From: Bacteroidota bacterium
Lineage (GTDB): Bacteria; Bacteroidota; Bacteroidia; B-17B0; Aurantibacillaceae
Length of the DNA: 64,000 nucleotides
Assembly: GCA_040387555.1 (NCBI GenBank)
Contig: JAZKDO010000009.1
Location: 17,191-81,190, forward strand
Direction: 5' to 3'
Shown here: piece after piece, positions 1 to 59,080 of the stretch
Layout: each line of letters starts with the position of its first letter
How positions within the stretch are numbered: position 1 is the stretch's first letter
Notes under the pieces: generated by a model
The model's database searches: none
What the model saw: only the letters and a program-made list of their open reading frames with translations
Told to the model about the DNA's origin: nothing
Program-made: the position numbers and the translations under genes

Positions 1-893
1 TCTGAGCCGGCATTTACGGTAATTGGCGCTATAACATATATTTTCACAGAATTTGTGCTGTCAATAGAGCAATTTGCACTTTGCACAACAGCTTTAAATA
101 ATGTTGTTTGAGTTAAATTTGAAGTTGTTAAAGTTGTTGTTGTATTCGGAATTGCTAACCAGCTTGTTCCATTGTTTTCTGATGCAACCCAGTTAAGAAC
201 ATTCCCAACATTTCCCGACAAGTTTAATGTATTTGAATTATTTGCAAAACACACGGTTGTAGTGCCTACCGAATTTATTGTTCCAGCTACTGTAAGCGGA
301 TTAATAATAAAACTAACTTCCGAAGATGTATCTTTTAAACAAAAGGCACTGTTTTGAACAATAATGCGATACGAAATATTTTGGGTGATATTTGAATAGG
401 ATAAAGTAGTTGATGTATTTGAAATATTAGTCCAGGACGCTCCACTGTTAATTGACGATTGCCAGTAGAGCACACTTCCCGTATTTCCCGTTAAATATAA
501 GTTTCCATTTCCTGAACCACCGCAAAATGTACCGCCACCTAAAATAATCCCCCCAACTGATGGTAAATAAATGGTAACACAGGCAGTTGTAGAAGTGTCA
601 GCAGGAAATGCCCCACTTTTAACAATGGCCCTGTAGCATGTTGTTTGTTTTAAATTAAAATAGCTTTGGCTTGAAATGGTATTGCCGTTACTTGTCCAAG
701 TTGCCCCTCCGTTTGTAGAATATTGCCAGGTGACTACATTGCCTACATATCCTGAAATAGAAACGAAACCTGAATTTATAGTATCACAATAGGTTTGTGA
801 ACCGGATGCAATTCCTCCAACCGACTGAGCATTATTTTTAAGTGTGTATAAACACAAAAAAACTAGCAAAGTTATTTTTTGGAAGAAAGACAT
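1..893 (-). CDS. Secreted cell-surface repeat protein, N-terminal ~297 codons only (CDS continues beyond window start)
   Basis: Not in the ORF track because there is no stop codon inside the window. My own reverse translation from ATG (893-891) stays open to base 1. It gives the signal peptide MSFFQKITLLVFLCLYTLKNNAQS, then three ~75-aa repeats, each with G-x-V-x-x-W-x-x-S-x-N-x-G-x-(S/T)-W ... A-(I/V)-V-(K/Q)-S ... C. Confidence 0.6.
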   Translation of the reverse strand, partial: MSFFQKITLLVFLCLYTLKNNAQSVGGIASGSQTYCDTINSGFVSISGYVGNVVTWQYSTNGGATWTSNGNTISSQSYFNLKQTTCYRAIVKSGAFPADTSTTACVTIYLPSVGGIILGGGTFCGGSGNGNLYLTGNTGSVLYWQSSINSGASWTNISNTSTTLSYSNITQNISYRIIVQNSAFCLKDTSSEVSFIINPLTVAGTINSVGTTTVCFANNSNTLNLSGNVGNVLNWVASENNGTSWLAIPNTTTTLTTSNLTQTTLFKAVVQSANCSIDSTNSVKIYVIAPITVNAGS

Positions 894-1127
894 ACTCAAA
901 GATCTATATTTTTATACAGTGATAGTCGTTTTTAGTTACTACTTTAATTATTAAAGCAAGTACAGTTCGTACCAAATATAAATAATAAACACCGGAGTAT
1001 TGTTGTTTAAAGAAAATATTATTAATCAATTAATTATATGATAACGGTAAATTATGAAAATATATTTCTCTAACAAAAAAGGTCCTGAAAATTAAATTCA
1101 GGACCTTTAAAAGTTATATTTAAATTA

Positions 1128-19726: not shown

Positions 19727-20095
19727 ATGAGTTTATTATTAGATTACGTAAAAAAGCAATTAGCAACAGAAGTTGCACATCCAAAATTTAAAGCAGGTGA
19801 TACAATTACTGTACACTACAAAATTAAAGAGGGTGAAAAAGAGCGTATTCAGCAGTTTTCAGGTGTTGTTATTCAACGCAAAAACGAGCCGGCAACTTCA
19901 TCTTTTACAGTTCGTAAAATTTCCAATGGTGTAGGAGTAGAGCGTATTTTCCCGGTATCGTCTCCATTCATTGATAAAATAGAATTAAATAAAATAGGTA
20001 TTGTTCGCAGAGCGAAAATCTACTATATCCGTACTCGTACAGGTAAAGCAGCCCGTATCCGTGAGAAAATCCAAAAGAAAACAGATAAAGCTTAG
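19727..20095 (+). CDS. rplS: 50S ribosomal protein L19
   Basis: 122 aa, with typical L19 sequence ([16 protein letters not shown]...[11 protein letters not shown]). Confidence 0.9.
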
Positions 20096-20111
20096 TATTT
20101 ATCCAAATAAC

Positions 20112-20144
20112 AAAAAACCTCTCAGATTTCTGGGAGGTTTTTTA
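20112..20144. terminator. Bidirectional intrinsic terminator between rplS and murB
   Basis: aaaaaacctctcag-attt-ctgggaggtttttt. Confidence 0.8.
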
Positions 20145-20145
20145 T

Positions 20146-21162
20146 TTATACAATATTCACTTCCCGTTCAAGCTCAACTCCAAATTTATCTTTTACTGTT
20201 TGTAAAACATGCGTGGAGAGATCATAGATCTCATTACCTGATGCTTGCCCATAATTGACTAATACGAGTGCTTGTAATTTATGAACTCCGGCATCACCTT
20301 TTCGATAGCCTTTCAACCCGCATTGTTCAATGAGCCAACCCGCTGCTAATTTATAATTAGAATTTTCTAATGGATAGGCTACCAAATTTGGAAAGTTTAA
20401 TTTTAGATTTTCATAAACCTCTTTCGATACTTCAGGATTTTTAAAGAAACTTCCTGCATTTCCAATTTCTTTTGGATTTGGTAATTTACTGCTTCGGATA
20501 TTAATTACCGCTTGTGAAATGGCTTTTATACTCAGCTCAGATATGTTCATCGCATCCAACTCCTGTTTAATTGCGCCATACTCTACATGAAAAACAGGAT
20601 TTTTTGATAATTTAAAAGTAACCGAGGTAATAAGGAATTGATTTTTGAATTTGTGTTTAAATACACTTTCGCGGTATCCAAATTCGCAATCTGTTTGTGA
20701 AAATGTTTTCAACTCACCACTTACTGCATGAATTGCCTCTAATTCATAAAAAGTATCTTTTATTTCAACGCCATAAGCCCCAATATTCTGCATCGGACTG
20801 GCACCGGTGCAACCAGGTATAAGGGCAAGATTTTCCACTCCGCCATAATTTTTGTTGATGCACCACATTACAAATTCATGCCATACTTCACCGGCGGCAC
20901 ATTTCACAAACACAAAGTCATCGGTTTCTTTTGTTACTTCTATTCCTTTAATGTCGTTCTTAATTACGAGTGCATCTACGTTTTTCGTCAATAACATATT
21001 GCTTCCTCCACCTAAAATCAAATGCTTATTATCTTTGTAAGAGGCATTTTGTAGTAGTTCCTGAATATTTTTCAGAGATTGTACGGATGTAAAATATTTG
21101 GCATACGCTTCAATGCCAAATGTATTATAGGATTTTAACGAAAAATTAGAGGAAATAATCAT
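20146..21162 (-). CDS. murB: UDP-N-acetylenolpyruvoylglucosamine reductase
   Basis: FAD-binding GGGSNML motif and a MurB C-terminal domain, 338 aa. Confidence 0.85.
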   Translation of the reverse strand: MIISSNFSLKSYNTFGIEAYAKYFTSVQSLKNIQELLQNASYKDNKHLILGGGSNMLLTKNVDALVIKNDIKGIEVTKETDDFVFVKCAAGEVWHEFVMWCINKNYGGVENLALIPGCTGASPMQNIGAYGVEIKDTFYELEAIHAVSGELKTFSQTDCEFGYRESVFKHKFKNQFLITSVTFKLSKNPVFHVEYGAIKQELDAMNISELSIKAISQAVINIRSSKLPNPKEIGNAGSFFKNPEVSKEVYENLKLNFPNLVAYPLENSNYKLAAGWLIEQCGLKGYRKGDAGVHKLQALVLVNYGQASGNEIYDLSTHVLQTVKDKFGVELEREVNIV

Positions 21163-47712: not shown

Positions 47713-49200
47713 ATGAATTATTCAATCCACCCCGAAAAGAGAATTACTATAAGTGACGTTCAACATATTTTAGAATCGAATGTTACATTGGTGCTTTCCG
47801 ATAAAGCCAAACAAAATATTGTGGCGTGTCGCGAGTATCTTGATAAAAAAATGGCTTCTCAAAAAGAGCCCATCTATGGCATTAATACAGGTTTTGGTTC
47901 TTTGTGTAATGTGATCATCCCGGATAGTGAACTTGAACAATTACAAACGAATTTGGTAATGTCTCATGCGTGCGGGATGGGTGATGAAGTGCCTTTGGAA
48001 ATTGTGCGCTTAATGTTATTATTAAAGATTCAGTCATTGTCTTATGGTAAAAGCGCTGTACAGTTAAAAACTGTTGAGCGACTGATAGATCTTTATAATT
48101 TAAAAGTTTATCCTATCATCTATCAGCAAGGTTCTTTAGGTGCGTCAGGTGACTTATCGCCTTTAGCACATTTGTCTTTGCCGTTATTGGGAATGGGAGA
48201 AGTGAATTATCAGGGAAATAAATACCCGGCTGCTGCGGTTTTAAAACAGTTAGGATTGGAGCCTATTACGTTGAAATCGAAAGAAGGATTGGCCTTATTA
48301 AACGGCACTCAATTTATGAGTGCATATGGCGTATGGTGTTTAATAAAGTCAAATAGGCTGAACGCATTGGCAGATTTCATTGGAGCTATTTCGTTGGATG
48401 GTTTTGATGGAAGAAGTGAGCCTTTTAAAGATAATATTCACATCATCCGTCCTCATAATGGTCAGTTACAAACGGCCAGGGCCATTCTGGAAAATCTAAA
48501 AGGCAGTGAAATATTAGCACAGAAAAAAGTACAGGTGCAGGATCCGTATTCTTTTCGCTGTATTCCCCAGGTTCATGGTGCAACTAAAGATGCGACAGTG
48601 TATGTAAATTCAGTTTTTGAAACCGAGATCAATTCAGTAACAGATAACCCAACAGTATTCCCGGAAGACGATGAAATTATCAGTGGAGGAAATTTTCATG
48701 GACAACCATTGGCTATCAGCCTTGATTTTTTAGCAATCGCTATTGCGGAATTAGGAAGCATTTCGGAAAGACGAGTGTATCAGTTAATATCGGGGATCCG
48801 TAATTTACCGGCTTTTTTAGTAGCTAAACCAGGACTGAATTCAGGTTTCATGATTCCTCAATATACTGCGGCAAGCATCGTTAGTCAGAACAAACAATTA
48901 TGTACTCCGGCCAGTATTGATAGTATTGTTTCCAGTAATGGCCAGGAAGATCACGTAAGTATGGGAGCTAATGCAGCAACTAAATGTTATAAAGTGATTG
49001 AAAATGTAGAAAAACTAATGGCTATTGAATTATTAAATGCATCGCAAGCAATTGAATTCAGAAGACCATTACAATCATCACCAAAAATCGAGAAAGTGTT
49101 GGCAGATTTTAGAAAATTAATTCCCTTTATTAAAGATGACAAAATCATGTACCAGGAAATGGAAGCGACTTTACAATTTGTAAAAACATTAACCATCTAA
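47713..49200 (+). CDS. hutH: Histidine ammonia-lyase (aromatic amino acid lyase family)
   Basis: GSLGASGDL MIO-forming motif, 495 aa. No hutU or hutI adjacent. Confidence 0.8.
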   Translation: MNYSIHPEKRITISDVQHILESNVTLVLSDKAKQNIVACREYLDKKMASQKEPIYGINTGFGSLCNVIIPDSELEQLQTNLVMSHACGMGDEVPLEIVRLMLLLKIQSLSYGKSAVQLKTVERLIDLYNLKVYPIIYQQGSLGASGDLSPLAHLSLPLLGMGEVNYQGNKYPAAAVLKQLGLEPITLKSKEGLALLNGTQFMSAYGVWCLIKSNRLNALADFIGAISLDGFDGRSEPFKDNIHIIRPHNGQLQTARAILENLKGSEILAQKKVQVQDPYSFRCIPQVHGATKDATVYVNSVFETEINSVTDNPTVFPEDDEIISGGNFHGQPLAISLDFLAIAIAELGSISERRVYQLISGIRNLPAFLVAKPGLNSGFMIPQYTAASIVSQNKQLCTPASIDSIVSSNGQEDHVSMGANAATKCYKVIENVEKLMAIELLNASQAIEFRRPLQSSPKIEKVLADFRKLIPFIKDDKIMYQEMEATLQFVKTLTI

Positions 49201-49206
49201 AAAATT

Positions 49207-49272
49207 TGTCAGTTCGATCGGAGTCAATTGTCATTTCAAGCGAAGTCACCTGTCAGTTCGATCCGAGTCGAT
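49207..49272 (+). repeat. Three head-to-tail 22-nt repeats
   Basis: tgtcagttcgatcggagtcaat / tgtcatttcaagcgaagtcacc / tgtcagttcgatccgagtcgat, in perfect 22-nt register in the hutH-downstream intergenic region. Confidence 0.75.
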
Positions 49273-49282
49273 AACAACCTAT

Positions 49283-49864
49283 ATGAAACATCTAAGCATT
49301 ATATTTCTATTAATTATGGCAGGCAAACTTTCATTTGCTTGTCAATGCCCTATAACCGAATTAACAGACAAGGAGCTTGCTAAATATGATATAATTTTTA
49401 GAGGAAACATAAATTCTATAAAACTTGATAAACAAAATAGTCAGGCTATTTTTACGATCAGTGAGCTATACAAAGGATTACTTGCGCAGGATTTTAAGAT
49501 TTTGTTTAATAATGACGATGTTTGCAAACTGGAATTAAGGGTAGGTGATGAATGGCTCATTTATACAAACTATCACCAGATCGATAATGCTAAACTTGAT
49601 TTTTGCAGCCGAAGCCGGAAGTTCTTTGTGAATATCAAAGAGGATTTTTTTGCAGAGACCACAGGAATCTCTTATGATGAGGAAATACGCTATTTACAAA
49701 CCAATTTAGGAATACATAAGTTGATGAAAGAAAATCCAAATAAAGTGGAGAACAGAAATTCATTACCCTCCAGTAATCAATCTGTTGTCTTAATTATTTG
49801 CTCTATTCTCGGACTGATCTTTTTCTATTTACTCATCAATAAACTTTTTAAAAAGTTTAGTTAA
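49283..49864 (+). CDS. C-terminally membrane-anchored protein with TIMP/NTR-like N-terminal domain (tentative)
   Basis: Signal peptide ...KLSFA|CQC would expose an N-terminal C-x-C. The downstream motifs YDIIFRG, LYKG, DDVC, EWLI and DFC line up with the TIMP N-domain pattern as I recall it. C-terminal TM helix VVLIICSILGLIFFYLLI. Confidence 0.4.
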   Translation: MKHLSIIFLLIMAGKLSFACQCPITELTDKELAKYDIIFRGNINSIKLDKQNSQAIFTISELYKGLLAQDFKILFNNDDVCKLELRVGDEWLIYTNYHQIDNAKLDFCSRSRKFFVNIKEDFFAETTGISYDEEIRYLQTNLGIHKLMKENPNKVENRNSLPSSNQSVVLIICSILGLIFFYLLINKLFKKFS

Positions 49865-49875
49865 TACAGACCCAA

Positions 49876-50511
49876 ATGAAAGTGCAGTTACATAAAGCTC
49901 ATCCCTGGCATGGTATCTCCATCGGCGAAAAATGCCCTGAGATCATTACTTCTTTTATTGAAATGGTTCCGGCCGATCATGTTAAATATGAAATTGATAA
50001 AGCATCAGGTTACCGTAAAGTCGACCGGCCTCAGAAATTTTCCAATATCATTCCTGCACTTTATGGTTTTGTGCCTCAAACCTATTGTGGTGAATTAGTT
50101 GCTGAACGAGCCAACGAAAGAACAAACCGCAAAGACATTATCGGTGATGGAGATCCTTTGGATATCTGTGTGTTAACCGAACGTAATATAACCAGTGGTG
50201 ATATCATTGTAGAAGCTATTCCCATTGGTGGTTTTCGGATGATAGACAAGAATGAGGCAGACGATAAGATCATTGCGGTGATGGCTAAGGATGAAATTTA
50301 CAGTAAATGGAAAGATATCCTGGATTGCCCTGAGCCATTGATCAATCGATTACGCCATTACTTCTTAACATATAAAAATATACCGGGAGAATCAACCGCT
50401 ATTGTAGAGATTACAGAAACTTATGGTAGAGAAGAAGCACATGAAGTGATCCGCCGTAGTGTGAAAGATTATGATAAACTATACAGATCATTCATGGATC
50501 TGGGTATGTAA
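49876..50511 (+). CDS. ppa: Inorganic pyrophosphatase (family I, long form)
   Basis: DGDPLD and IGGFRMIDKNEADDKIIAV motifs, 211 aa. Confidence 0.8.
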   Translation: MKVQLHKAHPWHGISIGEKCPEIITSFIEMVPADHVKYEIDKASGYRKVDRPQKFSNIIPALYGFVPQTYCGELVAERANERTNRKDIIGDGDPLDICVLTERNITSGDIIVEAIPIGGFRMIDKNEADDKIIAVMAKDEIYSKWKDILDCPEPLINRLRHYFLTYKNIPGESTAIVEITETYGREEAHEVIRRSVKDYDKLYRSFMDLGM

Positions 50512-50671
50512 GAGCAGTATCTTTAGTTTTTTATCAGATTGATAAAAGATTTTTTTAGATAGGTTTTTTGTCTTAATAATACGAAGCTACACCTCATTTA
50601 TGTAATTTGGGAAATAGCGACGATGCTAAGCACGCACATTTTTAATTATATTTATACATCTAATTTTTAGT

Positions 50672-51355
50672 ATGAAATACCTTGCTTTTTTCTCTTTGTT
50701 GGTTTGGCACTTAACTTCTTTTGCGCAGAAGTCTGTAAACCACAGACTGGTATTTCATCCCATGTTTGGGGATTCGGTTTTAAAAGAGGCGACCTATTAT
50801 CAAATCAACAGTAACGATAGTATACAAATAACTGCTTTAAAGTTTTACATTTCCGGTCTTGAACTTTCGTATCAACATAAAACTGTTTGGAAAGAAAAAA
50901 ACAGCTATCATCTTATGGATGCTTTTCAGGAAGGAAGTTTAACCCTGCCTTTACCATTACCTGCGAAATTAAAATATGACCGTGTTAAATTTAACTTAGG
51001 TATTGATAGTGTAACCAGCGTGTCCGGAGTAATGGGTGGCGATCTGGATCCAACCAAAGGAATGTATTGGACCTGGCAAAGTGGCTATATTAATTTTAAG
51101 CTGGAGGGTAACAGCAATTTATGCAAAACCCGCAATACCGAATTTCAATTTCATTTAGGGGGGTATCAGTTTCCGCATAATAACCTGCAATCTATTTTTA
51201 TGGATATGCCTCATCAAAAATTAGATGTGGTCATCGATATAAAAAAAATGGTAGGTGATTTGCCACTCACACAAATGCACCATATCATGTCGCCGGGAAA
51301 TGAAGCGATGCTTTTAACGGAAACAGTGATCAATGCCATGAGGGCTAAAAAATGA
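50672..51355 (+). CDS. MbnP-like periplasmic (copper-binding) protein
   Basis: Signal peptide, LKFYISGLEL and DPTKGMYWTWQSGYINFKLEG motifs as I recall for the MbnP family. ATGA overlap with the following di-haem peroxidase gene. Confidence 0.55.
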   Translation: MKYLAFFSLLVWHLTSFAQKSVNHRLVFHPMFGDSVLKEATYYQINSNDSIQITALKFYISGLELSYQHKTVWKEKNSYHLMDAFQEGSLTLPLPLPAKLKYDRVKFNLGIDSVTSVSGVMGGDLDPTKGMYWTWQSGYINFKLEGNSNLCKTRNTEFQFHLGGYQFPHNNLQSIFMDMPHQKLDVVIDIKKMVGDLPLTQMHHIMSPGNEAMLLTETVINAMRAKK

Positions 51356-52359
51356 AACAAAAATTTTTTATAGGATTTTTTTTGTGTGTTACCTTATGTG
51401 CCTTCCATGTAATAGATACTAAATTGTTTGTTTCTCCTGAAAACTGGCCTAAACCAAGTTACGATTTTACACAAAATCCTTTAACCTTTGAAAGCGTTCA
51501 GTTAGGCCGGCACTTATTTTACGATCCCATTCTGTCAAAAAACAATAAGATTTCCTGTGCCAGTTGTCATTCTCAATACACGGCCTTTACCCATGTGGAC
51601 CATAATTTAAGCCATGGTATCGATGATCGGATTGGCGTTAGAAATTCACCGGCTTTGATGAATCTTGCGTGGCATACATCTTTTATGTGGGATGGTGCGG
51701 TTAACCATTTGGATGTACAGGCATTAGCTCCGATTAGTCACCCGGATGAGATGGGGGAGAGTATTCAACAGGTAGTTACTAAATTAGGTCAGTCTGAAAA
51801 ATACAAAAAGTTATTCTATAAAGCTTATGGAGATAGGGTTATCACAGGTGAGCGTACTTTGAAAACCATTTCTCAATTCATGCTCACCTTAGTGAGCGCC
51901 AACTCAAAATATGACAGTGTGATGCGAAAGCAAAAACAATTTACAACACAAGAAAAAAGAGGATATGCCTTATTTCAAAAAAATTGTAATACCTGCCATA
52001 CCGAACCTTTATTTACAAACCTGCAATTTGAGAATAACGGCTTGTCCGTTGACACGACTTTAAATGATTTCGGTAGGATGAAGATTACTAAAAACAATTC
52101 CGATTCATTAAAATTTAAAGTACCTACGTTACGTAACGTTGAGTTTTCTTATCCTTACATGCATGATGGCAGGTTTAAAACGTTATCCCAGGTACTGAAA
52201 CATTATACCAATGGCGTTCATCAAAGTGAAACATTAGCGAAATCGTTAGATGCACCGATTGTGTTATCTTCCAACGATAAAGTGGATTTGGTAGCGTTTC
52301 TATTAACGCTGACTGATAAAAAGTTTTTATTTGATCCAAGATATTCTTTTCCAAAATAA
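51352..52359 (+). CDS. Di-haem cytochrome c peroxidase / MauG-family enzyme (MbnH-like)
   Basis: Two CxxCH motifs (CASCH, CNTCH), 335 aa, translationally coupled to the MbnP-like gene. Confidence 0.7.
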   Translation: MKQKFFIGFFLCVTLCAFHVIDTKLFVSPENWPKPSYDFTQNPLTFESVQLGRHLFYDPILSKNNKISCASCHSQYTAFTHVDHNLSHGIDDRIGVRNSPALMNLAWHTSFMWDGAVNHLDVQALAPISHPDEMGESIQQVVTKLGQSEKYKKLFYKAYGDRVITGERTLKTISQFMLTLVSANSKYDSVMRKQKQFTTQEKRGYALFQKNCNTCHTEPLFTNLQFENNGLSVDTTLNDFGRMKITKNNSDSLKFKVPTLRNVEFSYPYMHDGRFKTLSQVLKHYTNGVHQSETLAKSLDAPIVLSSNDKVDLVAFLLTLTDKKFLFDPRYSFPK

Positions 52360-52452
52360 TTTATTTCGCCTTTAATAACTTTTGGGCGATAGATATTATT
52401 GGTTTACCTAAAAATTTAATTTCAACTCTGCCTTGATATTACCTTTATACTA

Positions 52453-52580
52453 TATAAATTTATTTAGGGGAGTATCATAAGAGCAATCTGCGATTTAACC
52501 CTTATACTTGATCCGGGCCATACCGGTAAAAGAAAAATAAGTGTAACCCTCTCATAGAAATATGAGAGGGTATTTTTTTT
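52453..52580 (+). ncRNA. THI-box-like structured RNA unit, copy 1, with intrinsic terminator
   Basis: Preceded by TACCTTTA (52440-52447).
- P1: 52458-52465 with 52535-52542.
- P2: AGGG (52466-52469) with CCCU (52499-52502).
- P4: CUU with AAG.
- P5: CCGG with CCGG (52513-52526).
- Terminator: CCCUCUCAUA-GAAA-UAUGAGAGGG plus U8. Confidence 0.55.
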
Positions 52581-52813
52581 AGTTCAATAATGAGTCATTG
52601 TGACTAAGTGGGGTGGAAATTTTCTTAAATGGAAGCCGAGAGAAACAAAGTCACACAAGTTTCGAAGTAATTTATAGAATTAAAGAACCGACTCATGATA
52701 TCACGATTACCGTTGTCATATTTTTTACTGTTAATTTTAATTTCCGGCTATCTGTTTAATGGGTTCAACTAAAAATTAAATACCTGGGATTTTACTGATG
52801 TATCTTTACAGTA

Positions 52814-52946
52814 TATTATTTATTTAGGGAATAAGTTCACCAGAGCAATCTTAGACTTACAACCCTCATAACTTAAATCGGGATGAAATCCAATCTAAGA
52901 AAAATAAGTATAACCCTCTTGTAGCAATGCAAGGGGGTATTTTTTT
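52814..52946 (+). ncRNA. THI-box-derived structured RNA unit, copy 2 (most divergent), with intrinsic terminator
   Basis: Preceded by TATCTTTA (52801-52808).
- AGGG with CCCU is retained.
- UAAGU with ACUUA extends the helix.
- The apical hairpin AGA-GCAA-UCU is retained.
- P5 is replaced by GGAU-GAA-AUCC (52881-52891).
- Terminator: CCCUCUUGUA-GCAA-UGCAAGGGGG plus a U-run. Confidence 0.5.
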
Positions 52947-53197
52947 ATATGTATTTTCGTTGTCGATAACGACAGTACGATAATGGTATTTATAATCCAG
53001 GAGAGTAATCTATCACACGGTCACTGTCTAATTATATGTTATAAAGTCTTCTCGATGTCCATAGCAACTACTTCATAGTGTGACATCTTGATTTGTAATT
53101 TTTAATCTTCACTGTTAATTTTAATTTCTGGCTACCGATATCATCGCTTTAACTAATAATAAAAAAAACACTTTAATCTCAGCGTACCTTTATAGTA

Positions 53198-53327
53198 TAT
53201 TATTTATTTAGGGGAGGTTTTGAAAGAGAAATCTGAGAATTAAACCCTTATAACTTGATCCGGACAATACCGGCGAAAGAAAAGTAAGTATAACCCTCTT
53301 GTAGCAATACAAGGGGGTATTTTTTTT
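53198..53327 (+). ncRNA. Near-consensus THI-box (TPP riboswitch-like) aptamer with intrinsic terminator, copy 3
   Basis: Preceded by TACCTTTA (53185-53192).
- P1: 53201-53209 with 53282-53290.
- P2: AGGG with CCCU.
- P3: GGUUUU with GAAAUC.
- J3/2: CUGAGA (53233-53238).
- UAU junction, then P4 CUU with AAG.
- J4/5: GAU.
- P5: CCGG-ACAAUA-CCGG.
- J5/4: CGA.
- Terminator: 11-bp stem with GCAA loop (53293-53318) plus U8. Confidence 0.65.
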
Positions 53328-53496
53328 ATTTAATTTTCATTGTTGCGCAGTTTATGAAATCGTGAAAGAAAATAAAACATTCTTTTAAATATTGAAATCG
53401 TTTGTTTAAGCCTCAACTCTTCAATTTGACCTATCACTTATCCGTCCTTAACTAAAAATTAAAAAAACGGATCATTCCTGATGTACCTTTATAGTA

Positions 53497-53624
53497 TATT
53501 ATTTATTTAGGGAATTTTCAAAAAGTTAGTCTTTAGAAATAACCCTCATAACTTAAATCGGGGAATACCGAAATAAGAAAAATAAGTATAACCCTCTTGT
53601 AGCAATACAAGGGGGTATTTTTTT
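53497..53624 (+). ncRNA. THI-box-derived structured RNA unit, copy 4, with intrinsic terminator
   Basis: Preceded by TACCTTTA (53484-53491).
- P1: 53500-53508 with 53580-53588.
- P2: AGGG with CCCU.
- P4: CUU with AAG.
- P5: UCGG-GGAAUA-CCGA.
- J3/2 is altered to CUUUAGA, J4/5 to AAA and J5/4 to AAU.
- The terminator is identical to copy 3. Confidence 0.5.
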
Positions 53625-53728
53625 GAGTAAACGCATCCATTCATCTCAACATTGTTCCTATTCACCTAGTTAATTTTTTAATCCAGCATTCAAATTCTAT
53701 TTTTATATTTAATAAACATAAAAAACGA

Positions 53729-55102
53729 ATGCATATGATAAAAAAAATAGCAACAATGGTTCTGGTTTCTGGCAGCGCAATGGTAATAGCACAAACAAAT
53801 CCTGCCATCTCCTCATGGTTAAGAAATACTACCGGCATTACAGGTAGGCATTATGTATCGGGAAATTCTACTGCCATCACTGATGCTACGTTATCAGCAA
53901 ATGTTCAAACGGTAAAATATTCTGCAAATTATGTATACGTAAGTACCCAGGGAATTCCTGCTTATATCACCGGACCTTTTCTGGATGGTAATCCATCCCT
54001 GGCAACAAATCAGAATGCTATTTTTAAATTTCCATTAAGTCCTGCTCAAAATACCGGAACGCCCACAGCTACATCCGGAGGAAACATTGGTGTATTTATA
54101 AATGGTGTTGCTTTATTTGATTACCGCGATGGTGTTTCATGGAAAAATTCAACCAGTGCAATGGCCGGTGGCCCTTTAGGTGGCTCCGGTGATGGTGTCT
54201 GGAACCGGGATGCAATTGTAGCGGAAAAGGCAGGATTTGATTGTTCAAAAGGACATCCGGCGATGGGAAATTATCATCACCATCAAAATCCAAGCGCTTA
54301 TAATTTGGATAGAGTGGTAATCTCTAACATTTGTAATTTATATGTCGCAGATGGTTTGTATGCAATCGACAGTACTCAACATTCTCCTTTACTAGGTTAT
54401 GCCTATGATGGTTTTCCGATTTATGGTGCTTATGCCTACAAAAATTCAAACGGCACCGGTGGGATTGTAAGAATGAAATCCAGTTTCAGTTTAAGAAACA
54501 TTACAGTTAGAAATACATATTACACTGGTACTTCTGTTACAGCTGGACCAAATGTAAGTAGTACTTATCCATTAGGAACATTCAGAGAAGACTATCAATA
54601 CAATACCACATCAACCCTTACTCCTGAATATCTGGACGATCATAATGGACGCTTTTGTGTAACACCGGAATATCCGGCAGGTATTTATTGTTATTTCGCA
54701 ACGGTGGATCAAAATTGGAATTCAGCATATCCATATGCTGTTGGGCCAACTTTTTACGGAACAAAAGTAGCTGTGAAAGTGACATCAATAACTGAAACGG
54801 TGACTAGCTACACAGGAACTTCCACCGGAACTGGTGAATCAGAAAAAGAAAATTTTAGTATGTTAGTATATCCAAATCCGGCAAGTGACTTAGTGGCCAT
54901 TCAGTTAAATAATATAACAAAAGATAACCTGAGCGTGGAATTGTTTGATATTACTGGAAAGCTAGTTCAAAAAACAATGATATACCAAGGGAGCACCATC
55001 GCTTATTTTGATACAAGAACGCTTTATAGCGGAGAGTACATCATTAGAATCCATCAAGGCACCATGACGCAGACTAAGAAAATTCTGATCGAAAAACAAT
55101 AA
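53729..55102 (+). CDS. YHYH-domain secreted protein with T9SS type A C-terminal sorting domain
   Basis: Signal peptide, GNYHHHQNP, GYAYDGFPIYG and DDHNGRF motifs typical of the YHYH family. The CTD reads VYPNPASDLVAIQL...SGEYIIRI. Confidence 0.6.
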   Translation: MHMIKKIATMVLVSGSAMVIAQTNPAISSWLRNTTGITGRHYVSGNSTAITDATLSANVQTVKYSANYVYVSTQGIPAYITGPFLDGNPSLATNQNAIFKFPLSPAQNTGTPTATSGGNIGVFINGVALFDYRDGVSWKNSTSAMAGGPLGGSGDGVWNRDAIVAEKAGFDCSKGHPAMGNYHHHQNPSAYNLDRVVISNICNLYVADGLYAIDSTQHSPLLGYAYDGFPIYGAYAYKNSNGTGGIVRMKSSFSLRNITVRNTYYTGTSVTAGPNVSSTYPLGTFREDYQYNTTSTLTPEYLDDHNGRFCVTPEYPAGIYCYFATVDQNWNSAYPYAVGPTFYGTKVAVKVTSITETVTSYTGTSTGTGESEKENFSMLVYPNPASDLVAIQLNNITKDNLSVELFDITGKLVQKTMIYQGSTIAYFDTRTLYSGEYIIRIHQGTMTQTKKILIEKQ

Positions 55103-58782: not shown

Positions 58783-58900
58783 TTGGGCGTGCCGGCGAAA
58801 GAGACAGCGCCGTCAGGGTTTACGCTCCAATCTTTCGTCTGCGCTTCGGCTCCGCTCAACGCCCAACGAAAGGATTTTCACTTCAATCCTTCACGCGGGT
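58783..58900. repeat. GC-rich structured island in an AT-rich intergenic region
   Basis: ttgggcgt (58783-58790) pairs with acgcccaa (58859-58866). Nested cggcg/cgccg pair (58793-97 with 58808-12). Hairpin aaggatt-N8-aatcctt (58870-58891). Ends in tcacgcgg. Confidence 0.5.
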
Positions 58901-59080
58901 TTTACGTTCAAATATAGTTGATAATACAATTTTGAAATACAATTACATGAAGGATATAAAGTAGATATACTTTTGCTGGTTCGCCGAATATGGTTACTGA
59001 GATTGTCTCAGTTATCGAAGAGCTTGCAAAGAATTGAATCCTCCATCTGCTTTATAAATACTGCTCAAATTTTAATGTAG

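What the first reader, a model, noticed from the sequence alone, without database searches (positions are those of the whole stretch)
52360..53728. 1.37-kb ORF-free gap holding four tandem, apparently autonomous copies of a ~130-nt structured RNA unit
This is the longest stretch in the window without an ORF of 60 aa or more; the rest of the window is gene-dense. It contains four same-strand copies of one unit. The AGGG anchors lie at 52466, 52826, 53210 and 53509, so the spacings are 360, 384 and 299 nt.
Each unit has three parts:
- a conserved TA(C/T)CTTTA box that resembles the Bacteroidota -7 element TAnnTTTG, 6-9 nt before the first helix;
- a multi-helix fold;
- a strong intrinsic terminator with a 10-11-bp stem, a GNRA-type loop and a run of 6-9 U.
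The helices are supported by compensatory differences between copies:
- The terminator arms read CUCAUA/UAUGAG in copy 1 and CUUGUA/UACAAG in copies 3 and 4. Copy 2 has CUUGUA/UGCAAG, with one A.G mismatch next to the loop.
- The internal hairpin reads CCGG/CCGG (copies 1 and 3), UCGG/CCGA (copy 4) and GGAU/AUCC (copy 2).
The conserved core has no ATG shared between copies on either strand, so it is not a peptide gene. Spacers 1 and 2 also share actgttaattttaatttc[ct]ggcta exactly 100 nt upstream of the AGGG, at 52727-52750 and 53111-53134. This indicates that a longer block was duplicated and then diverged.
Multi-copy tandem sRNA genes are known in other phyla (Qrr, PrrF, LhrC). I am not aware of an equivalent described for Bacteroidota, nor of four complete aptamer-plus-terminator units in a row.
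Basis: seen in the sequence. Interest (0 to 1): 0.85.

Follow-up and report, generated by a model that had tools for sequence, protein, structure and literature searches.

The report
Four tandem TPP-riboswitch-derived cassettes
The gap holds four head-to-tail copies of a thiamine-pyrophosphate (TPP) riboswitch unit, each with its own promoter-like box and terminator. Only one copy still looks able to bind TPP, so this is an unusual version of a known regulatory RNA, not a new kind of small RNA.

Summary
Window 52360-53728 is the longest ORF-free stretch in the window. It carries four same-strand units, each with a TAYCTTTA box, a three-way-junction RNA and an 11-bp terminator.

The units are not a new RNA family. 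They are homologues of the TPP riboswitch (Rfam RF00059). Copy 3 scores 63.1 bits (threshold 54.3), copy 1 scores 43.3, copy 4 scores 33.7, and copy 2 is not detected.

Copies 1, 2 and 4 have changes at the nucleotides that contact TPP in solved structures. They keep P1, P2, the linker, the terminator and the promoter-like box almost unchanged.

The array lies between mbnH and a secreted YHYH-family gene. Close relatives have three units or one unit at the same site. More distant relatives have none, and there mbnH and YHYH are 55-75 nt apart.

Corresponding units are 91-92% identical between genomes whose third codon positions are saturated (43-47%). The units are therefore maintained and are not junk. 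No reading frame shows a coding signal.

Most likely this is a duplicated series of promoter-riboswitch-terminator cassettes acting as attenuators ahead of YHYH. Autonomous riboswitch-derived small RNAs remain a serious rival.

It is a new variant of a known kind, of moderate interest.

The parts
52406..52447 (+). Unit 1 upstream region. It holds the A/T-rich block ACCTAAAAATTTAA (52406-52419) and the -7-like box TACCTTTA (52440-52447).
   Evidence: Both blocks recur in all 8 units of three genomes whose neutral sites are saturated. The flavobacterial sigma-A -7 box consensus is TAnnTTTG at -12 to -5 (PMC9723704). Here the last base is A.
52452..52580 (+). Unit 1 RNA (W1). It is a diverged TPP-type aptamer (P1 to P1 about 52458-52542) followed by the terminator 52546-52571 and a U tract to 52580.
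   Evidence: Rfam TPP scores 43.3 bits, below the 54.3 threshold. J3-2 reads CUGCGA instead of CUGAGA, and CCGGUA replaces CCGGCG. W1 is 91% identical to the first unit of L081.
52727..52750 (+). 24-nt block ACTGTTAATTTTAATTTCCGGCTA, about 100 nt upstream of unit 2. The second copy lies at 53111-53134, upstream of unit 3.
   Evidence: It aligns with CAGTTAATTTGAAATTTTGGCTA in L081. It is partly complementary to the AACTAAAAATTAAA block.
52767..52808 (+). Unit 2 upstream region. It holds AACTAAAAATTAAA (52767-52780) and the box TATCTTTA (52801-52808).
52812..52947 (+). Unit 2 RNA (W2). It is a remodelled aptamer-like three-way junction (about 52817-52910) followed by the terminator 52913-52938 and a U tract.
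   Evidence: Rfam TPP does not detect it even at E<=10. It reads GGGAAU, CUUAGA, CUUAAAUCGGG and lacks GCG. The MFE fold keeps the P1/P2/arm/arm topology. The Logan contig L120 confirms the sequence up to 52925.
53151..53192 (+). Unit 3 upstream region. It holds AACTAATAATAAAA (53151-53164) and the box TACCTTTA (53185-53192).
53196..53327 (+). Unit 3 RNA (W3). It is a canonical TPP riboswitch aptamer (Rfam match 53200-53298) followed by the terminator 53293-53318 and a U tract to 53327.
   Evidence: RF00059 scores 63.1 bits against a threshold of 54.3, E=5e-10. CUGAGA, UGAUCCGG and CCGGCG are all present. W3 is 92% identical to the canonical units of L081 and 86% to that of L092.
53450..53491 (+). 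Unit 4 upstream region. It holds AACTAAAAATTAAA (53450-53463) and the box TACCTTTA (53484-53491).
53495..53625 (+). Unit 4 RNA (W4). It is a remodelled aptamer-like three-way junction (about 53500-53588) followed by the terminator 53591-53616 and a U tract.
   Evidence: Rfam TPP scores 33.7 bits, below threshold. It is the same subtype as W2 (GGGAAU, CUUUAGA, CUUAAAUCGGGG...CCGAAAUAAG). P4 and P5 are kept through A-U and U-A pair changes. The aptamer-part fold has a z-score of -2.4.
53661..53705 (+). Conserved promoter-like leader directly upstream of YHYH: TTCACCT (53661-53667) and the TATTTTTA box (53698-53705).
   Evidence: The blocks are conserved in the window, L081, L085, L086 and L092, while the rest of the leader is at random identity.
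53735..55102 (+). Downstream gene: a YHYH-family protein with a T9SS (type IX secretion system) C-terminal sorting domain. An alternative ATG lies at 53729.
   Evidence: Pfam PF14240 at 4.2e-55 and PF18962 at 1.1e-14. The 100%-identical database protein P0001 is 455 aa.
50672..52359 (+). Upstream genes: mbnP-like (50672-51355) and mbnH-like di-haem peroxidase (51352-52359).
   Evidence: Pfam MbnP and CCP_MauG; NCBIfam MbnH family. The mbnP-mbnH-YHYH triad is conserved in relatives.

Best explanation
**What it is.** The gap holds a tandem array of four cassettes. Each cassette is a sigma-A-type promoter-like box, a TPP-riboswitch-type aptamer and an intrinsic terminator. The array arose by repeated tandem duplication of a single cassette that sits between mbnH and a YHYH gene in a narrow Bacteroidota clade.

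**The four units.**
- Copy 3 is a canonical TPP-sensing riboswitch with a terminator as its expression platform. When TPP is bound, the aptamer holds the GGGGAGG segment. The downstream AACCCUCU... arm is then free to form the terminator, and transcription stops after about 125-130 nt.
- Copy 1 is an old, conserved derivative with a changed pyrophosphate pocket and a changed J3-2.
- Copies 2 and 4 are a younger subtype in which both ligand-sensor arms are remodelled. The complementarity needed for an antiterminator is also weakened, so these two should terminate by default.

**How it works.** The array acts in cis as a series of attenuators with internal promoters on transcription running toward YHYH. 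Most initiations end as short terminated RNAs.

**What is shown and what is inferred.**
- Shown: the identity of the units, the architecture, conservation across genomes, and the lack of coding signal.
- Inferred: promoter activity, ligand binding, the switching mechanism, and the effect on YHYH.
For: **Identity.** Rfam TPP matches copy 3 at 63.1 bits (above threshold), copy 1 at 43.3 and copy 4 at 33.7. All four fold into the P1/P2, P3-arm and P4-P5-arm three-way junction plus a separate 11-bp terminator.

**Same site in relatives.**
- L081 and L082 have three units: the first is copy-1-like (41.9 bits) and two are canonical (62.3 and 67 bits).
- L092 has a single canonical unit (67 bits).
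- The L085 and L086 contigs both begin with the 31-mer of a unit terminator.
- Thirteen further loci fetched through the look-up of encoding contigs include five lineages at 78-83% YHYH identity with only 55-75 nt between mbnH and YHYH.
- The 80 GTDB loci at 61-74% identity have no unit at all. The model can detect unrelated TPP riboswitches at 20-48 bits.

**Constraint.**
- W1 is 91% identical to R1a, and W3 is 92% identical to R2b and R3c. YHYH and mbnH third codon positions are only 43-47% identical, and the post-array leader is 54% identical against 53% for shuffled sequence.
- Differences between W2 or W4 and W3 are concentrated in the two sensor arms (26/60 and 25/56). Only 4/75 and 3/75 fall in P1, P2, the linker and the terminator.

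**Helices.** 93.4% of cells are paired. Four pairs show changes on both sides. Slid-register controls give 40-56% paired.

**Promoter-like box.** It sits where a flavobacterial -7 box should lie relative to the 5' end of P1.

**Antiterminator.** A candidate pairing, GGGGAGGUU with AACCCUCU, lies within 1.4-1.9 kcal/mol of the aptamer fold in W3 and W1.

**Precedent.** Tandem complete TPP riboswitches are known, and so are promoters between tandem riboswitches (PMC9481103).
Against: - **No expression data.** There are no transcript data for this region.
- **Default state is predicted OFF.** In every unit the predicted ground state is aptamer plus terminator, even without ligand. P1 is long (8-9 A-U or G-U pairs).
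- **The candidate antiterminator is weak where it matters.** It is 4-11 kcal/mol worse in R1a, R3c, S1, R2b, W2 and W4. A ligand-dependent switch is therefore not demonstrated.
- **The last unit blocks the route.** In the window, the last unit before YHYH (W4) lacks the TPP contacts and the antiterminator. This should block read-through from the only canonical unit.
- **YHYH seems to have its own promoter.** It has a conserved promoter-like leader of its own.
- **L085 separates the unit from YHYH.** A convergent PKD/CHU_C gene lies between them.
- **No thiamine link.** YHYH has no known connection to thiamine, and most of its orthologues lack any riboswitch.
Confidence: 0.5

Rival explanations
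1. **Autonomous riboswitch-derived small RNAs.** Each cassette is a self-contained gene whose product is the terminated RNA of about 125-130 nt, or its TPP-dependent read-through form. These RNAs act in trans or by sequestering a factor, and YHYH is transcribed from its own promoter.

From my own knowledge, not checked here, the models are:
- the Listeria SAM riboswitch RNAs SreA and SreB;
- the B12-riboswitch-controlled ncRNAs EutX and Rli55.
For: - Every unit keeps a -7-like box and an upstream A/T block across three genomes.
- Every unit keeps a strong terminator.
- No robust antiterminator is found.
- In W2 and W4 the promoter box, P1, P2, linker and terminator are nearly invariant while the ligand arms have drifted.
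- YHYH has its own conserved promoter-like leader.
- In L085 a convergent gene lies between the unit and YHYH.
Against: - No transcription start or target data exist.
- The canonical TPP core is strictly kept in W3, R2b, R3c and S1. That argues for ligand-controlled output, which is most simply a cis read-through decision.
- The units occur only at this one locus, always pointing toward YHYH.
- No unit was found elsewhere in the window, the fetched loci or the metagenome scan.
- The conserved framework could also be kept by gene conversion.
Confidence: 0.25
2. **Decaying duplicates.** Only the canonical unit (copy 3) is a working riboswitch. Copies 1, 2 and 4 are pseudo-riboswitches left by unequal recombination. 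They have no function of their own and are kept similar by gene conversion.
For: - Copies 1, 2 and 4 fall below the Rfam threshold or are undetected.
- They lack G40, G60, C77 or G78 equivalents.
- Copy number differs between close relatives: 0, 1, 3 or 4.
- W2, W3 and W4 share a lineage-specific terminator variant, which suggests concerted evolution.
- The sensor arms of W2 and W4 differ from each other at 25/60 positions.
Against: - The copy-1 type keeps its own diagnostic differences (GAGCAAUCU, CCGGUAAAAG, AAGUGUAACC). It is also 91% identical between two genomes with saturated neutral sites. Plain decay would not give this, and neither would full homogenisation.
- Non-functional units that keep strong terminators upstream of a gene would be costly unless they were tolerated or useful.
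- P4 and P5 of W4 are kept through pair changes.
Confidence: 0.15
3. **Multi-ligand logic array.** The diverged units are TPP-family variants that sense other thiamine-related compounds, such as thiamin, TMP or HMP derivatives. The array would then integrate several signals.
For: - Some RNAs classified as TPP riboswitches are reported to have altered specificity for thiamin or TMP, including in tandem arrangements (PMC9481103).
- The copy-1 type changes the pyrophosphate pocket (CG to UA) in both genomes while keeping P4 and P5.
Against: - The J3-2 pyrimidine-sensor residues also differ, and they differ between the two copy-1 orthologues (CUGCGA against CUAAGA).
- W2 and W4 have lost all the main contacts, and their arms are not conserved between each other.
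- No further examples were found.
Confidence: 0.08
4. **Small peptide genes or an assembly artefact.** Either the repeats encode a short protein on one strand, or the array is a mis-assembly of a single unit.
For: - Stop-free stretches of 33-48 codons exist on the minus strand across the units.
- Short-read assemblies break inside the units.
Against: - No frame on either strand has an excess of synonymous over non-synonymous differences, and start codons are not conserved.
- The four units and three spacers are mutually distinct sequences.
- An independent assembly reproduces units 1 and 2 exactly.
- A three-unit array is present in two separate NCBI assemblies.
Confidence: 0.02

Closest known systems
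TPP riboswitch (THI element, Rfam RF00059) with an intrinsic-terminator expression platform
   Same: - Copy 3 passes the curated threshold.
- It has the CUGAGA, UGAUCCGG...CCGGCG and P1-P5 architecture.
- It is followed by a terminator.
   Different: - Copies 1, 2 and 4 fail the threshold and lack ligand-contact residues.
- P1 is unusually long, and no strong antiterminator is evident.
- The neighbouring genes (mbnPH, YHYH) are not thiamine genes.
Tandem ('pseudo-cooperative') TPP riboswitches, such as Bacillus anthracis tenA (Welz and Breaker 2007), and the 213 tandem TPP representatives including one triplet (PMC9481103)
   Same: Several complete units, each an aptamer plus its own terminator, lie in series on one strand upstream of one ORF.
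   Different: - There are four units, not two or three.
- The host is Bacteroidota. The enrichments reported in PMC12452182 are for Bacillota thiamine operons.
- Every unit carries its own promoter-like box.
- Spacers are long (167-248 nt).
- Only one unit is canonical.
[quoted passage not shown]
   Same: A higher-order repetition of one riboswitch class in a single leader.
   Different: The ligand class differs. In those arrays all units are thought to be functional and to share one transcript.
Glycine 'singlet plus ghost aptamer' arrangements (cited in PMC9481103)
   Same: A degenerate former aptamer is kept next to a functional one, and its helical scaffold is kept without its ligand pocket.
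   Different: - Ghost aptamers share one expression platform with their partner and contact it directly.
- Here each degenerate unit has its own P1, terminator and promoter-like box, and lies hundreds of nt away.
Riboswitch RNAs acting as or within sRNAs: Listeria SreA/SreB and Enterococcus/Listeria EutX/Rli55 (from my own knowledge, not checked here)
   Same: A riboswitch plus terminator gives a discrete small RNA whose form depends on the ligand. This matches the 'autonomous unit' reading.
   Different: Those RNAs have demonstrated trans targets. SreA and SreB also still precede genes they regulate in cis. None forms a tandem array. Nothing is known here about targets.
   Same: Several same-strand copies of a short RNA of about 100-130 nt, each with a terminator and possibly its own promoter.
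   Different: Those are Hfq-dependent base-pairing sRNAs with no aptamer ancestry. The units here are riboswitch homologues. The resemblance is in layout only.

Membership tests
TPP riboswitch (RF00059) | Covariance-model score at or above the curated gathering score (54.3 bits) | tested here: met
   Met for copy 3 only, at 63.1 bits. Copy 1 scores 43.3 and copy 4 scores 33.7, both below threshold. Copy 2 is not reported at E<=10. Counterparts in relatives score 67, 67 and 62.3 bits (canonical) and 41.9 bits (copy-1 type).
TPP riboswitch (RF00059) | Three-way junction: P1 closing helix, P2/P3 pyrimidine-sensor arm and P4/P5 pyrophosphate-sensor arm | tested here: met
   All four units give this topology in the MFE fold and centroid. 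93.4% of cells are paired on the 8-unit alignment, against 40-56% in slid registers. The P3 helix is poorly paired (73.7%).
TPP riboswitch (RF00059) | Conserved J3-2 CUGAGA. From established knowledge of the thiM structures, G40 and the G42/A43 stack recognise the pyrimidine ring. | tested here: not met
   Copy 3 has CUGAGA. Copy 1 has CUGCGA, copy 2 has CUUAGA and copy 4 has CUUUAGA. The L081 first unit has CUAAGA. The feature is met in one of four units.
TPP riboswitch (RF00059) | Pyrophosphate pocket residues: the G of UGAU (G60) and the CG after P5 (C77, G78), from established knowledge of the thiM structures | tested here: not met
   Copy 3 has UGAUCCGG...CCGGCG. Copy 1 keeps UGAU but has CCGGUA. 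Copies 2 and 4 have UAAAUCGG and ...AAUCUA / ...GAAAUA. The feature is met in one of four units.
TPP riboswitch (RF00059) | Binds TPP and changes expression-platform folding | not testable with these tools
   This needs in-line probing, ITC and termination assays. Thermodynamic folding finds only a weak candidate antiterminator.
TPP riboswitch (RF00059) | Association with thiamine biosynthesis, salvage or transport genes | tested here: not met
   The flanking genes are mbnP, mbnH and YHYH with a T9SS domain. No thiamine gene lies among the ten neighbouring genes scanned, between 47.7 and 61.4 kb. The function of YHYH is unknown: the only PDB sequence matches of note are to its T9SS sorting domain, and the AF2 model is unusable.
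Tandem (pseudo-cooperative) riboswitch | [quoted passage not shown] | tested here: met
   Four aptamer-type folds, each with its own terminator, lie on one strand with no intervening ORF of 60 aa or more.
Tandem (pseudo-cooperative) riboswitch | All units sense the same ligand and lie on one transcript | tested here: inconclusive
   Only one unit keeps the TPP consensus. Each unit has a promoter-like box, so there may be several transcripts. There are no transcript data.
Independent multi-copy sRNA genes | Own promoter and own terminator for each copy | tested here: inconclusive
   The terminator is present in each unit. The promoter is only a conserved TAnnTTTA box at the expected distance from P1. 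The flavobacterial consensus is TAnnTTTG. The generic motif is not enriched in the window: 108 found against 101 expected.
Independent multi-copy sRNA genes | A trans target or a phenotype independent of the downstream gene | not testable with these tools
   No expression or target data are available.

The most novel reading that the evidence does not exclude
The diverged units are functional products of cassette amplification, not decaying copies. In this reading a promoter-riboswitch-terminator module has multiplied and partly changed function.
- The copy-1 type is conserved between genomes, with its own diagnostic changes.
- The copy-2/4 type keeps its promoter box, P1, P2, linker and terminator, but has remodelled arms.

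The new function would be either autonomous small RNAs or variant aptamers for another ligand. This would catch a riboswitch turning into sRNA genes, and it would link thiamine status to a secreted YHYH protein next to a copper-associated mbnPH pair.
Probability: 0.25. Interest if true: 0.75.

Novelty: new variant of a known kind. Interest (0 to 1): 0.45.

Why it matters
- **Copy number.** If the four-unit count holds, it exceeds the single triplet reported for TPP riboswitches in PMC9481103. The array also comes from a phylum where tandem riboswitches have had little attention.
- **Evolution of an array.** The series of 0, 1, 3 and 4 units at one locus shows a riboswitch cassette being inserted into an operon, amplified together with its promoter, and then partly stripped of its ligand pocket while its framework is kept.
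- **Testable questions.**
  - What is selected in an aptamer that no longer looks able to bind its ligand?
  - Do internal promoters change the dose-response of tandem riboswitches?
  - Is the uncharacterised YHYH secreted protein connected to thiamine?
- **Limits.** The class of RNA and the idea of tandem repetition are both established. The evidence comes from a handful of metagenome assemblies, with no expression data.

Tried and rejected
**Other RNA families.** In the permissive Rfam scan, everything apart from TPP is far below threshold (ncr1575, PyrR, L10 leader and others) and mostly reflects the terminator.

**Small ORF on either strand.** Stop-free stretches exist on the minus strand. 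No frame shows an excess of synonymous changes, and starts are not conserved. Rejected.

**Units elsewhere.**
- My covariance model R1 finds only the four copies in the window.
- It finds none in 80 GTDB loci with YHYH orthologues. A regular expression for the TPP core agrees.
- The metagenome scan with a unit-specific pattern found nothing.
- A looser P4/P5 pattern found 26 unrelated single TPP riboswitches of higher G+C, scoring 20-48 bits with R1. They serve only as a sensitivity control.
- The viral contig scan found nothing.

**Spacers.** They have no similarity to anything held, apart from the 24-nt block.

**Function of YHYH.**
- The only matches of note in the PDB sequence search are to the T9SS sorting domain.
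- A literature search for 'YHYH' returned nothing relevant.
- The AlphaFold model from a shallow alignment had a mean pLDDT of 41.9, so no fold search was attempted.

**Antiterminator.**
- The first constraint run did not enforce the pairing and is uninformative.
- The enforced run gives a GGGGAGGUU:AACCCUCU alternative. It is competitive only in W1 and W3 and lies 5.3 kcal/mol above the aptamer fold in the single-unit genome. Inconclusive.

**Source contig.** The window's YHYH protein could not be looked up by exact sequence, either from the 53729 start or as P0001. The source was reached through MbnH instead.
Full report
**1. Observation**

Window 52360-53728 (1369 nt) is the longest stretch without an ORF of 60 aa or more. 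The next longest is 770 nt.

It contains four same-strand units.
- AGGG anchors lie at 52466, 52826, 53210 and 53509.
- TAYCTTTA boxes lie at 52440, 52801, 53185 and 53484. The extended box TAYCTTTAYA occurs 6 times in the window against 1.24 expected.
- Four 11-bp terminator-like hairpins have GAAA or GCAA loops and 7-8 T. Shuffles give 1.1 such sites.
- The 24-nt block shared by spacers 1 and 2 is real. It is the only other similarity among the spacers.

- The odd pair in the copy 2 terminator is a U.G wobble.
- The terminator 'compensatory' changes are shared by copies 2-4 as a block, so they do not count as independent events.

An independent Logan assembly (L120) matches window 48352-52925 without a mismatch. 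It stops inside the copy 2 terminator, as expected at a repeat.

**2. Identity**

The units are TPP riboswitch homologues.
- Rfam RF00059 matches copy 3 at 63.1 bits (gathering score 54.3).
- At a permissive threshold it matches copy 1 at 43.3 bits and copy 4 at 33.7 bits.
- Copy 2 is not reported.

All four fold into the TPP topology. A long A-U-rich P1 and P2 close two arms, followed after 2-3 nt by a separate terminator.

Copy 3 has the hallmark CUGAGA, UGAUCCGG and CCGGCG. The other copies differ at these sites.

| Unit | J3-2 | Pyrophosphate pocket / other |
|---|---|---|
| Copy 3 | CUGAGA | UGAUCCGG...CCGGCG |
| Copy 1 | CUGCGA | CCGGUA |
| Copy 2 | CUUAGA | GGGAAU, CUUAAAUCGG, no GCG |
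| Copy 4 | CUUUAGA | GGGAAU, CUUAAAUCGG, no GCG |

From established knowledge of the thiM structures, the changed positions include the pyrimidine contact (G40) and the pyrophosphate contacts (G60, C77, G78).

**3. Context and relatives**

*Flanking genes.* Upstream are mbnP-like and mbnH-like genes. Downstream is a YHYH-family protein with a T9SS sorting domain. The window comes from a Bacteroidota MAG.

*Distant relatives.* Among 80 GTDB loci with YHYH orthologues (61-74% identity), my covariance model of the units (R1) finds nothing. A regular expression for the TPP core also finds nothing. R1 does detect unrelated TPP riboswitches at 20-48 bits, so the absence is meaningful.

*Closer relatives.* These differ in copy number.

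| Locus | YHYH identity | Units at the site |
|---|---|---|
| L081, L082 | 82% | Three in the mbnH-YHYH gap: a copy-1-type unit, then two canonical ones |
| L092 | 82% | One canonical unit directly after mbnH |
| L085, L086 | 83-84% | Contigs begin with the 31-mer of a unit terminator |
| L083, L087, L089, L091, L093 | 78-83% | None; only 55-75 nt between mbnH and YHYH |

The cassette was therefore inserted into an mbnPH-YHYH gene string in one small clade and then amplified to different extents.

**4. Constraint**

*Between the window and L081.*
- YHYH third codon positions are 43% identical, and those of mbnH are 47%.
- The leader after the array is 54% identical, against 53% for shuffled sequence.
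- Yet W1 is 91% identical to R1a, and W3 is 92% identical to R2b and R3c.
- The copy-1 type keeps its own diagnostic differences in both genomes. It is therefore an old, maintained variant.

*Within the window.*
- W2 and W4 differ from W3 at 26/60 and 25/56 positions in the two sensor arms.
- They differ at only 4/75 and 3/75 positions in P1, P2, J2-4, the linker and the terminator.
- The -7-like box and an A/T block about 40 nt further upstream recur in all eight units.

*Structure and coding.*
- On the eight-unit alignment 93.4% of cells pair, against 40-56% in slid registers.
- Four pairs change on both sides: three in the terminator and one in P5.
- No frame on either strand shows a coding pattern.

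**5. Mechanism**

The box sits where the flavobacterial sigma-A -7 element (TAnnTTTG, -12 to -5; PMC9723704) would place a start a few nt before P1. A promoter in each unit is therefore plausible but unproven.

The only candidate antiterminator is GGGGAGGUU (5' side of P2/P3) pairing with AACCCUCU (5' arm of the terminator).
- It lies within 1.4-1.9 kcal/mol of the aptamer fold in W3 and W1.
- It is 4-11 kcal/mol worse in the other units.
- It is 5.3 kcal/mol worse in the single-unit genome.

By thermodynamic prediction every unit defaults to aptamer plus terminator. W2 and W4 (GGGAAU) should terminate regardless of ligand.

Several observations weaken a simple 'four switches control YHYH' picture.
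- W4 is the last unit before YHYH.
- YHYH has its own conserved promoter-like leader, with TTCACCT at 53661-53667 and a TATTTTTA box at 53698-53705.
- In L085 a convergent gene lies between a unit and YHYH.

On the other hand, the strict conservation of the canonical TPP core implies a ligand-dependent output.

My weights are:

| Reading | Weight |
|---|---|
| Cis attenuator array with internal promoters | about 0.5 |
| Autonomous riboswitch-derived RNAs | about 0.25 |
| Decaying duplicates | about 0.15 |
| Variant-ligand logic | about 0.08 |
| Peptide gene or assembly artefact | about 0.02 |

**6. Comparison with known systems**

Tandem complete riboswitches, including TPP pairs, are well described. 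The survey reports 213 tandem TPP representatives and one triplet. It also reports promoters between tandem elements, and TPP-class variants with altered specificity (PMC9481103).

A later survey reports tandem TPP enrichment in Bacillota thiamine operons (PMC12452182).

The differences here are:
- four units;
- a Bacteroidota host;
- a promoter-like box in each unit;
- long spacers;
- a non-thiamine neighbourhood;
- only one canonical aptamer.

Membership in RF00059 is met for copy 3 and not for the other three copies.

**7. Verdict**

The finding is real and correctly described, but its interpretation as an unprecedented sRNA family is not right. It is a new variant of a known kind. Interest is 0.45.

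The most novel reading still open is a riboswitch cassette amplifying and changing function into small RNAs or new aptamers. I give it a probability of about 0.25.

Noticed in passing
window 58807-58905 (-), box at 58909-58916 (-): A Flavo-1 RNA (RF01705, 43.5 bits against a threshold of 42) lies between two divergent DEAD-box helicase genes. A perfect TAnnTTTG box (TATATTTG) lies 3 nt upstream of the model start. It is a useful internal example of a promoter-proximal small RNA in this genome.
   Followed up: partly
window 50672-55102; L083, L087, L089: mbnP-like, mbnH-like and YHYH genes form a conserved triad. In relatives without the RNA units the mbnH-YHYH gap is 55-75 nt. There the triad is preceded by an ECF-type sigma factor gene and two small ORFs, which suggests an ECF-controlled operon.
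   Followed up: partly
window 53661-53705; L081, L085, L086 and L092 leaders: Conserved blocks lie just upstream of YHYH in the array-bearing clade: TTCACCT(C/A)G.TTA and a TAYTTTTA box about 30 nt before the ATG. The rest of the leader is at random identity. This is possibly a dedicated YHYH promoter with a regulator site.
   Followed up: partly
L085 1-2420: In one relative (Logan SRR28468947) a 655-aa PKD/CHU_C gene on the opposite strand lies between the end of a unit terminator and YHYH. Read-through from the unit would therefore be antisense to that gene.
   Followed up: no
window 52727-52750 with 52767-52780: The 24-nt conserved spacer block is partly complementary to the conserved AACTAAAAATTAAA block 23 nt downstream (13 nt, 85%). 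This could be an A-U hairpin in read-through RNA or a symmetric protein site. Spacer 1 also has nested inverted repeats: 52587-52596 with 52690-52699, and 52599-52605 with 52649-52655.
   Followed up: no
window 358-1127: This is the second-longest stretch without an ORF of 60 aa or more (770 nt), near the start of the window. No Rfam family reaches its threshold there.
   Followed up: no
window 19992-20148 (+): A weak match to my unit model R1 (17.7 bits, E about 0.1). It is probably terminator-driven and was not examined.
   Followed up: no
window 53729 and 53735: Two in-frame ATGs start the YHYH ORF. The identical database protein (P0001, 455 aa) starts at the second one.
   Followed up: yes
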